Assembly (NCBI GenBank): GCA_048940645.1
Contig: JBHLOI010000027.1
Location: 1 to 48,182, forward strand
Direction of reading: 5' to 3'
DNA: 48,182 nt
Origin: Promethearchaeota archaeon
Lineage (GTDB): Archaea > Asgardarchaeota > Lokiarchaeia > Sigyniarchaeales > SOKP01
Positions 2,519 to 4,495 of the stretch are shown here, piece by piece. The first letter of the stretch is position 1, and the number at the start of each line of letters is the position of its first letter. The translations under genes and the position numbers were made by a program. The notes below the pieces were generated by a model. That model worked only from the letters and a program-made list of their open reading frames with translations. It was not told the DNA's origin and made no database searches.

Positions 2519-3088
2519 ATGTCTCAAAAAGCCAAGGATTCAGAAGAACAATTCTCGTTTAAATGTCCCGCTTGTTCTGAAGGAACTGTAAATATACAAA
2601 AAACAGTTTACGACTTACCTGATAAGGATAAAATGCTTATTATCAAATTTGAATGCAATGAATGCAATTTTTCTAAAAATGATATCATTCCTTTAACTAC
2701 TAATTTTGATCCTGGCATTATAACTTTAAAAGTTATAAATGAAGAAGATCTTAAATCAAAAATTTATCGATCTCCTACTGGAAAATTAGAGATACCTGAG
2801 TTAGAATTATCTGTACAACCAGGACCTAATGCAGAGTTCTATTATACTAATGTTGAAGGGATTTTATATCGATTCGAAAGTGCTGTCTTACTATATAGAA
2901 ATAATTTAAAGAAATCTGATCCTGAAATTGAGGATGTAAATCAAATTTTAGAGGATATTAAAAAAGCACTTAATGGAAAATTGGAATTCACATTAAAAAT
3001 AACTGATAATGGTGGAGGGAGTTATATCATTCCATTTGATAAATCAAAATATCTTTTTGAAAAACTTGAAAATATGGAATTAGATTAA
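2519..3088 (+). CDS. ZPR1-type zinc finger protein (single archaeal module)
   Basis: CPAC...CNEC zinc finger, then RSPTGKLEIPEL and TNVEGIL typical of the ZPR1 A/B domain. Confidence 0.85.
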   Translation: MSQKAKDSEEQFSFKCPACSEGTVNIQKTVYDLPDKDKMLIIKFECNECNFSKNDIIPLTTNFDPGIITLKVINEEDLKSKIYRSPTGKLEIPELELSVQPGPNAEFYYTNVEGILYRFESAVLLYRNNLKKSDPEIEDVNQILEDIKKALNGKLEFTLKITDNGGGSYIIPFDKSKYLFEKLENMELD

Positions 3089-3276
3089 AATCTCCTTTAT
3101 ACTCAATGATAAGTTTTTAATAAAATTACCATAAATTTAATTTAAGATTAGTTTAGATTATTTTAAAAAAATAGGAATATTTTGCAATCAATAATCATTA
3201 TGATGTATTCCATCACAACTTTTTTAATTAAAAATTGCTTAATTAATTAGTCAAAATACCAAAATAAAATTTATAA

Positions 3277-3282
3277 AGGTGA
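3277..3282 (+). promoter_or_regulatory. Shine-Dalgarno site of pfk (AGGTGA)
   Basis: AGGTGA matches the archaeal anti-SD and lies 6 nt upstream of the ATA at 3289. Confidence 0.7.
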
Positions 3283-3288
3283 TTTTAT

Positions 3289-4495
3289 ATAGCTATTAAA
3301 AAGATTGGAATTTTAACGGGCGGCGGAGTCATGTTCAAGATTTTCCTTAACTGTCGTATACTGCCCTGGGTTAAATAGCGTAATTTATGGGATAATGTTA
3401 AAAGCTTATGATGCTGGGGTAGAGTGTGTAGGAATTCTTAAGGGCTGGAAAGGATTTATAGATAATGATACAATCCCTCTTAATATAGCCGAACATGATG
3501 ACTTACATACGGTAGGAGGAACAATTCTCTATACAAGTAGAACAAATCCTTTTAAAGGAATCACTTCAAAAGAAGAAAAAGCAAAAGAACTAGCAGCAAA
3601 GTTTAATGAATTAGCTATCGATGCCCTAATAGCTATCGGTGGAGTTTTAAAATAGTTTCTATTTTAAACTGAAGACGATACATTAGGGGTTGCGGATTCT
3701 TTGCACAAATTTGCCAAAGCAAAGGTTGTTGGTGTTCCAAAAACTATAGACAATGACCTTCTTGGAACACATTATACGTTTGGATTTTGGAGTGCTGTAC
3801 AGTTAGCTTCTAATACACTAGATAATCTAACAACAACTGCACATTCTCATCAAAGGGTGTTTGTAGTTGAAATAATGGGCAGAGATGCCGGCTTTCTTAC
3901 CATGTATAGTGGAATCTCTGCTGGTGCTGATATTATTTTAATCCCAGAGACTCCATTTGACTTTGAGAAAGATATTACTGATGTACTTAAAAAAAGAGCA
4001 ACTGCTGGTTATAAATATCATATTATTGCAATATCAGAAGGAGCATACCCTAACCTAAAGTCACTAGAGAGAGATTTTAAAACGATTTCTAAAGAAACTA
4101 TTGAAAAATTACCCAAAGATACATTTGGTAATCCATTATTAGCTAAATTAGGTATGTCTCAAATAATTGTTGATGAATTAAATTTACGAGAGGATTTGCA
4201 AAAAGAATTTAAAAGAAATGGAGTTGAATTTGAGTGCAGAAGCGTTGTTCTTGGTCATACTATGCGTGCTGGAACTCCTAATTCATTTGATAGAATATTA
4301 GGTCTAAGATTTGGATTAGCAGCTATGAAATTGGTATTAGAAGGCAAATTTGGGAATATGGTCTCATTACAAGGAAATCAAATTAAAGATGTACCTCTTT
4401 CTGAGGGAGTAAAAAAGAAATATATCACCGCGGAAAACGACAAAATGGAATTACGTGATTTATTAGTTAAAATAAGATACTTATCTAAACAATAG
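3289..4495 (+). CDS. pfkA: 6-phosphofructokinase (PfkA family, PPi-type signature), split by two introns; exons 3289-3328, 3360-3644, 3675-4495; 381 aa after splicing
   Basis: Joined exons read MAIKKIGILTGGGDCPGLNSVI...GGTILYTSR...ALIAIGGDDTLG...PKTIDND...VEIMGRDAG...LGHTMRAG. Exon total is 1146 nt (382 codons with stop). GGDD plus PKTIDND is the PPi-dependent signature. Confidence 0.92.
3329..3359 (+). other. Putative bulge-helix-bulge mRNA intron 1 (31 nt)
   Basis: Removal gives GGA G|AC TGC (GGGDC). Central helix GCGG(3323-26)/UCGU(3354-57), bulges AG^U and AU^A, internal intron hairpin, and exon-exon stem GGGCG/C(U)GCCC. Confidence 0.8.
3645..3674 (+). other. Putative bulge-helix-bulge mRNA intron 2 (30 nt, contains in-frame TAG)
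   Basis: Removal gives GGA G|AC GAT (GGDD). Exon stem UAUCG/CGAUA, central helix GUGG/CUGA, bulges AG^U and AG^A, perfect 10-bp intron stem 3646-55/3659-68. Confidence 0.85.

What the first reader, a model, noticed from the sequence alone, without database searches (positions are those of the whole stretch)
3318..3366. Intron 1: BHB geometry predicts the only register that restores the catalytic Asp
Pairing read from the sequence: exon stem G3318-G3322 with C3361-C3366 (U3362 bulged); central helix G3323-U3357, C3324-G3356, G3325-C3355, G3326-U3354; 5' bulge A3327 G3328^U3329; 3' bulge A3358 U3359^A3360; intron stem C3330-G3353, A3331-U3352, GUU/AAC, AAG/CUU. Any 31-nt deletion here restores the frame, but neighbouring registers give Tyr or Val. 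Only 3329-3359 gives GGG-D-CPG, and that is the register the BHB rule predicts independently. The G-U pairs work only on the sense RNA, which favours an RNA-level structure over a DNA palindrome.
Basis: partly seen in the sequence, partly recalled or inferred. Interest (0 to 1): 0.88.

Follow-up and report, generated by a model that had tools for sequence, protein, structure and literature searches.

The report
Mobile tRNA-type mini-intron in Asgard pfk
A 31-base insert breaks the only PfkA-family phosphofructokinase gene found in this Asgard archaeon; it has the RNA shape cut by the tRNA-splicing enzyme, is conserved in 30 related genes and seems to spread with a neighbouring selfish DNA-cutting gene, so the mRNA very probably has to be spliced, which the papers I could search report inside a coding sequence for only one archaeal gene.

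Summary
Observation confirmed. All listed pairs exist, and among 31-nt removals only 3329-3359 gives GGG-D-CPG, at the canonical BHB cut points. The gene is the single PfkA (PPi-type motifs) of a Promethearchaeia (Loki) genome, with a second 30-nt insert (3645-3674). The insert sits at the same site in 30 of 104 orthologous loci; the central helix is 99% paired, with a C-G/U-A swap. Carrier genes are otherwise intact (dN/dS 0.07). A crenarchaeal-type two-subunit EndA and RtcB are encoded. Corrections: the restored Asp is not the catalytic base, and this copy's BHB lies 2.6 kcal/mol above the predicted MFE. The intron is scattered on the pfk tree and moves as a DNA patch. Five carriers and no non-carrier have a free-standing LAGLIDADG gene just upstream; this genome keeps that cassette's leader but not the nuclease. 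Its EF-1alpha gene shows the same nuclease-plus-intron pairing. No RNA reads were obtainable, so splicing and homing are inferred. The scan noted these pfk introns and the nuclease link before on other genomes; I found no paper on them.

The parts
2519..3088 (+). zpr1-like gene, the conserved upstream neighbour of pfk
   Evidence: TIGR00340 over cut-off; ends 105-160 nt before the intron site in 36 of 37 intronless relatives
3211..3288 (+). foreign leader (SD AGGTGA at 3277-3282) shared with intron carriers of three genera; in G092 and G083 it follows directly on a nuclease gene; probable leftover of a homing-endonuclease cassette
   Evidence: the eight best matches of this flank are all intron-1 carriers; intronless sister G116 has the host-type leader
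3289..3328 (+). pfk exon 1 (probable ATA start, ends in the G of the Asp codon)
   Evidence: ATA/ATT/ATC at this position also in G118, G083, G094, G092, G031, G051
3312..3375 (+). BHB substrate: exon stem (3318-3322 with 3361-3366, extended by 3312-3317 with 3370-3375), central helix 3323-3326 with 3354-3357, two 3-nt bulges
   Evidence: extended stem averages 5.2 of 6 pairs in carriers against 3.6 in intronless genes
3329..3359 (+). intron 1, 31 nt, frameshifting, ORF-less BHB intron in phase 1 of the GGG-D Asp codon
3360..3644 (+). pfk exon 2
   Evidence: PFK_mixed profile positions 11-103
3645..3674 (+). intron 2, 30 nt, in-frame TAG, 10-bp hairpin with relaxed BHB (central helix 3 of 4), splitting the GGDD motif; register ambiguous over 3643-3645 with the same product
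   Evidence: present at 22 loci in 21 genomes
3675..4495 (+). pfk exon 3 with PKTIDND (catalytic base region) and stop
   Evidence: spliced product 382 aa from ATA

Best explanation
The insert is an ORF-less archaeal BHB intron in a working mRNA. SHOWN: the pfk frame is broken here and at 3645-3674; removing both at the BHB cut points gives a 382-aa PfkA with PPi-type motifs; the helix is conserved in 30 orthologues; carriers evolve under purifying selection; EndA (catalytic and structural subunit) and RtcB are encoded. INFERRED: the pre-mRNA folds, helped by enzyme binding, into helix-bulge-helix-bulge-helix; the (alpha-beta)2 EndA with its crenarchaeal-type loop cuts after G3328 and U3359; RtcB joins the exons and remakes the Asp codon. 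INFERRED, less sure (about 0.65): the intron spreads by collaborative homing. A free-standing LAGLIDADG gene inserted between zpr1 and pfk cuts the conserved GGGD codons of intronless alleles; repair copies nuclease, new leader, exon 1 and intron; the intron makes the new allele uncuttable; the nuclease is later lost, as here.
For: Register and pairs. 30 of 104 loci in five genera carry it at the identical site, 30-32 nt. 95.3% of cells paired, 0 of 500 shuffles as high, slid controls 32-54% (relatedness inflates this control). Synonymous exon positions are constrained in carriers: last Gly GGA 30/30 against 39/74, middle Gly GGY 30/30 against 35/74. All 26 full-length carriers give an intact ORF; dN/dS 0.069 against 0.060. 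Only PF00365 copy found in a 90% complete genome. EndA alpha aligns with A. pernix including K44/R46 of the loop that gives broad specificity (PMC3241643); beta lacks the catalytic His; RtcB present. Mobility: 21 state changes on the pfk tree against 24 shuffled, genus 13 against 55; identical intron in G000 and G087 at 0.62 substitutions per site; divergence about doubles at the intron site in discordant close pairs; AGY Ser marker in 7 of 20 carriers, 0 of 62 others; LAGLIDADG gene upstream in 5 of 24 carriers, 0 of 67 non-carriers; same pairing at EF-1alpha in this genome and at 5 more loci.
Against: The BHB of this copy is not the predicted MFE; intron 2 has a mismatched helix and lies 5.2 kcal/mol above its MFE. 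This genome has no nuclease gene next to pfk, nor do most carriers. The nuclease target was not determined. Genomes are related, so the Fisher values overstate. Intron 2 has no clear nuclease partner.
Confidence: 0.9

Rival explanations
1. Dead gene: the insert is a small DNA insertion that inactivated pfk, and the BHB look is chance.
For: The frame is broken twice; the start codon is ATA; BHB-like shapes are common in AT-rich DNA; the BHB is not the MFE.
Against: No other lesion in 26 full-length carriers, dN/dS 0.07; only copy found; helix conserved with a compensatory change; same site in five genera.
Confidence: 0.03
2. The mRNA is not spliced; ribosomes bypass or frameshift over the insert, as in phage T4 gene 60.
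For: Short hairpin insert beside a nuclease cassette, as for T4 gene 60 (my knowledge).
Against: The junction splits a codon (G|AC), so bypassing cannot make the Asp; other registers give Tyr or Val; no matching landing codon; selection acts on intron-exon pairing.
Confidence: 0.03
3. Real intron, but ancient and repeatedly lost (or moved by neutral recombination), not spread by a nuclease.
For: All intron-1 variants align and look homologous; cbf5 shows single gain and later loss (PMC2738675); most carriers lack an adjacent nuclease.
Against: Needs about 38 independent losses; none of 83 intronless alleles has the full carrier-type junction expected from precise loss; no RVT_1 found; intron divergence is uncoupled from host distance, rho 0.09; foreign leader and nuclease travel with it.
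Confidence: 0.25
4. The insert is removed at DNA level, or is a palindromic MITE-like element.
For: Hairpin shape; intron 2 is a near-perfect inverted repeat.
Against: No target duplication, no second copy in the genome; pairing involves exon bases in BHB geometry and alternates G-U with G-C.
Confidence: 0.02

Closest known systems
BHB intron of the cbf5 pre-mRNA in Desulfurococcales and Sulfolobales (Yokobori 2009, PMC2738675)
   Same: Short (16-44 nt there, 30-32 here), ORF-less, BHB cut after the second bulge base, splits the codon of a conserved Asp, host has a hetero-oligomeric EndA.
   Different: Asgard host; metabolic gene with two introns; the Asp is not the catalytic base; patchy lateral spread instead of single gain and loss; linked to a free-standing nuclease; splicing shown for cbf5, not here.
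HVO_1309 5' UTR intron of Haloferax volcanii (PMC7714728; PMC10485636)
   Same: EndA-processed BHB intron in an mRNA.
   Different: 46 nt, reported in the UTR; here it breaks the coding frame.
Collaborative homing: F-CphI and the psbA group I intron of cyanophage S-PM2 (PMC6083498, PMC2988022)
   Same: ORF-less intron in a conserved motif beside a free-standing homing endonuclease gene; intron and nuclease co-inherited.
   Different: Here the intron is a 31-nt protein-spliced BHB intron in a cellular chromosome and the nuclease is LAGLIDADG; cutting and protection untested; nuclease absent at this locus in this genome.
Asgard tRNA introns (bioRxiv 10.64898/2026.10.13.758758)
   Same: Repeatedly gained inserts at BHB motifs in Asgard genomes.
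   Different: That work covers tRNA genes only and found no general route of arrival.

Membership tests
Archaeal BHB intron | 4-bp central helix between two 3-nt bulges on opposite strands | tested here: met
   two terminal G-U pairs here, G-C in other carriers
Archaeal BHB intron | Cuts after the second base of each bulge give the exon junction | tested here: met
   junction fixed independently by intronless orthologues
Archaeal BHB intron | Flanking exon and intron helices | tested here: met
   93% and 93% of cells paired
Archaeal BHB intron | BHB is the stable fold of the free RNA | tested here: inconclusive
   2.6 kcal/mol above MFE here, 0-5.5 across 30 carriers
Archaeal BHB intron | Host encodes EndA and RtcB | tested here: met
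Archaeal BHB intron | Excision and exon ligation occur in vivo | not testable with these tools
Group I or II self-splicing intron | Ribozyme core | tested here: not met
   31 nt; no Rfam intron match
Collaborative homing pair | Free-standing homing endonuclease gene beside the intron-bearing gene | tested here: inconclusive
   absent at this locus in G000; present in 5 carriers and no non-carrier
Collaborative homing pair | Co-conversion of flanking DNA with the intron | tested here: met
Collaborative homing pair | Nuclease cuts the intronless allele and the intron blocks cutting | not testable with these tools
   needs an in vitro assay
PPi-dependent PfkA | GGDD and PKTIDXD signatures | tested here: met
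   PMC12203962; activity not tested
PfkA catalytic base (Asp127) | The split Asp is the general base | tested here: not met
   it aligns with the N-terminal GGD Asp of Bacillus PFK; the base is Asp127

The most novel reading that the evidence does not exclude
Promethearchaeia splice many protein-coding mRNAs (pfk twice, EF-1alpha, EF-2, S27ae and others) with the tRNA endonuclease, and these ORF-less mini-introns invade conserved motifs by collaborative homing with a family of free-standing LAGLIDADG nucleases: a mobile mRNA-intron system in a close prokaryotic relative of eukaryotes.
Probability: 0.62. Interest if true: 0.88.

Novelty: new variant of a known kind. Interest (0 to 1): 0.74.

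Why it matters
In the literature I could search, protein-spliced introns inside archaeal coding sequences are known for cbf5 alone, and their origin is stated as unclear. Here a central metabolic gene needs two splicing events, other core genes of the same genome show the same design, and the comparative data give a concrete, testable route of intron gain: a nuclease drives, the intron protects, the host EndA removes the cost. It bears on how introns could spread into mRNAs of the archaeal relatives of eukaryotes, and it means genes scored as pseudogenes or missing in Asgard genomes may be intact.

Tried and rejected
Ab initio genome-wide BHB scans were too unspecific (about 2-fold over antisense decoys, dominated by operon junctions) to count introns; I used a homology census instead (1 clear intron in 507 genes). 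Rfam: nothing relevant. The intron has no second copy in the genome by short blastn. No RVT_1 found (genome 90% complete). The LAGLIDADG_3 hit on C83 has no intron-bearing neighbour detected. Several genes inserted upstream of pfk in carriers are not nucleases by Pfam; the G083 ORF is only motif- and Atlas-level similar to Vsr/DUF559 nucleases. The C119 nuclease gene has no Pfam hit itself and is assigned by homology (E 1e-22). The sigma-70 promoter scan is uninformative for archaea. A paper on the role of Asp12 was not found. RNAalifold recovers only three of four central pairs and no intron stem, because stem registers differ between intron subfamilies. One search used a wrong frame for the deletion table (redone); some searches were slips, corrected.

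Full report
1. The observation. The window is contig C37 of a 3.8-Mb genome whose nearest relatives are Promethearchaeota/Promethearchaeia, the former Lokiarchaeia. Translating every 28-, 31- and 34-nt deletion shows that among 31-nt removals only 3329-3359 yields GGG-D-CPG; neighbours give Tyr or Val. These ends are the canonical cuts after the second base of each bulge. A strict BHB of this form occurs at 5e-4 of positions for this length and in 0.13% of insert shuffles. The fold is not the predicted minimum in this copy: best BHB-constrained fold 2.6 kcal/mol above the MFE, central pairs at probability 0.01-0.04; across 30 carriers the gap is 0-5.5.

2. The gene. Exons 2 and 3 match PFK_mixed; this is the only PF00365 locus found. 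A second insert, 3645-3674 (30 nt, in-frame TAG), splits the GGDD motif in the same GGA G^AC context. Removing both gives 382 aa from an ATA start behind AGGTGA, with GGDD and PKTIDND, the PPi-type signatures (PMC12203962). The Asp restored by intron 1 aligns with the N-terminal GGD Asp of Bacillus PFK, Asp12 in E. coli numbering by my knowledge; the general base is Asp127. 'Catalytic Asp' is therefore wrong, though the residue was present in all orthologues scored.

3. Comparative evidence. 142 of 161 genomes of the class have the orthologue. Intron 1 is present at 30 of 104 scored loci in five genera, always after GGA G, 30-32 nt long; intron 2 at 22 loci. On 27 distinct sequences the central helix is 99.1% paired; one pair swaps C-G to U-A in three genomes, coupling a synonymous exon change to an intron change; the first two intron pairs swap in 5 and 8 sequences; slid controls give 32-54%. 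Relatedness inflates the shuffle control, so I weigh the swaps, not the P value. All 26 full-length carriers give an intact ORF, with median dN/dS 0.069 against 0.060 for intronless genes. This rejects the pseudogene and assembly-error readings.

4. Machinery. The genome encodes two EndA subunits and RtcB. One has the Tyr/His/Lys triad and aligns best with A. pernix EndA alpha, including the Lys44/Arg46 loop that confers activity on relaxed motifs (PMC3241643); the other lacks the His. This is the enzyme type linked to cbf5 splicing (PMC2738675).

5. Mobility. On a pfk tree built without the intron-flanking codons, intron 1 needs 21 changes (shuffled mean 24), genus labels 13 (shuffled 55); single gain would need about 38 losses. 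G000 and G087 share an identical intron at 0.62 substitutions per site. Close pairs that differ in intron state show about twice the divergence at that site; G116 and G118 differ at 18 positions in the first 90 nt and almost nowhere after. No intronless allele has the full carrier-type junction expected from precise loss. Prompted by an earlier scan note (e1-5575414) I examined the upstream DNA. In 36 of 37 non-carriers zpr1 abuts pfk; carriers often hold inserted genes. Five carriers have a double-motif LAGLIDADG gene ending 95-165 nt before the site, and a family-wide search finds this nuclease beside pfk only in those five. G000 lacks it but has at 3211-3288 the leader that follows the nuclease gene in G092 and G083. 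A motif-free census of 507 genes found one more clear intron in G000, a perfect BHB in the P-loop of EF-1alpha (C119:4250-4282), directly downstream of a homologous LAGLIDADG gene. Six of 27 nuclease loci examined had a neighbour with a 29-33-nt BHB-shaped insert, in five different genes.

6. Mechanism. Shown: anatomy, conservation, selection, enzymes present, patch-like movement. Inferred (0.9): EndA cuts after 3328 and 3359 and RtcB rejoins the exons; without this, translation stops at about codon 30. Inferred (0.65): collaborative homing, as described for F-CphI and the psbA intron (PMC6083498; PMC2988022), with later loss of the nuclease.

7. Comparison and novelty. It meets every testable feature of an archaeal BHB intron and works like the cbf5 intron. 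Papers searched report cbf5 and the HVO_1309 UTR intron only; a 2026 preprint on Asgard introns covers tRNAs and leaves their arrival open. The library lacks most subscription journals, so prior description is not excluded. The scan itself has noted these pfk introns, many other Asgard mRNA introns and the nuclease link on other genomes; these notes are leads, not support. Verdict: new variant of a known kind, interest 0.74.

Noticed in passing
G000:C119:4250-4282 (L226:2751-2783): 33-nt insert with stops and a perfect BHB in the P-loop Lys codon of the only EF-1alpha match in the genome (gene cut by the contig end), directly downstream of a 599-aa LAGLIDADG-like gene (L226:748-2547).
   Followed up: yes
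G000:C88:49889-49919 (-) and G000:C19:35830-35862 (-): 31-nt and 33-nt BHB inserts whose removal restores an S27ae-like protein and the CX5R loop of a phosphatase; orthologues not checked.
   Followed up: partly
L202, L203, L209, L210, L225: BHB-shaped 29-31-nt inserts in genes beside LAGLIDADG genes of relatives: 2-oxoacid oxidoreductase gamma-like, RuBisCO-like, acetyl-CoA synthetase-like (twice) and EF-2-like, named from sequence motifs only.
   Followed up: partly
window 3289-3291: Probable ATA start; ATA, ATT or ATC at the same place behind AGGYGA in six other intron carriers, never in the intronless g1 genes listed.
   Followed up: partly
L015:1993-2418 (-), G083: 142-aa ORF between zpr1 and pfk with a Vsr/DUF559-like nuclease motif, so a second nuclease family may use the same site.
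   Followed up: partly
family f1: A free-standing double-motif LAGLIDADG family occurs in 69 of 135 genomes, up to 8 copies each, often with long N-terminal extensions.
   Followed up: partly
pfk orthologues: Introns 1 and 2 co-occur more than expected (13 both, 11 and 8 single, 59 neither; odds ratio 8.7, kin not independent).
   Followed up: no
G083:C5:244006-244200 (L089): A second, partial pfk copy carrying intron 2.
   Followed up: no
whole genome: ARAGORN finds only 13 tRNA genes, several malformed, suggesting many tRNAs carry non-canonical introns.
   Followed up: no
PDB 9cir, 44xa, 44xf: Solved structures of a close intronless relative of this PFK exist (484 bits); by my recollection from Prometheoarchaeum syntrophicum, not verified.
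   Followed up: no
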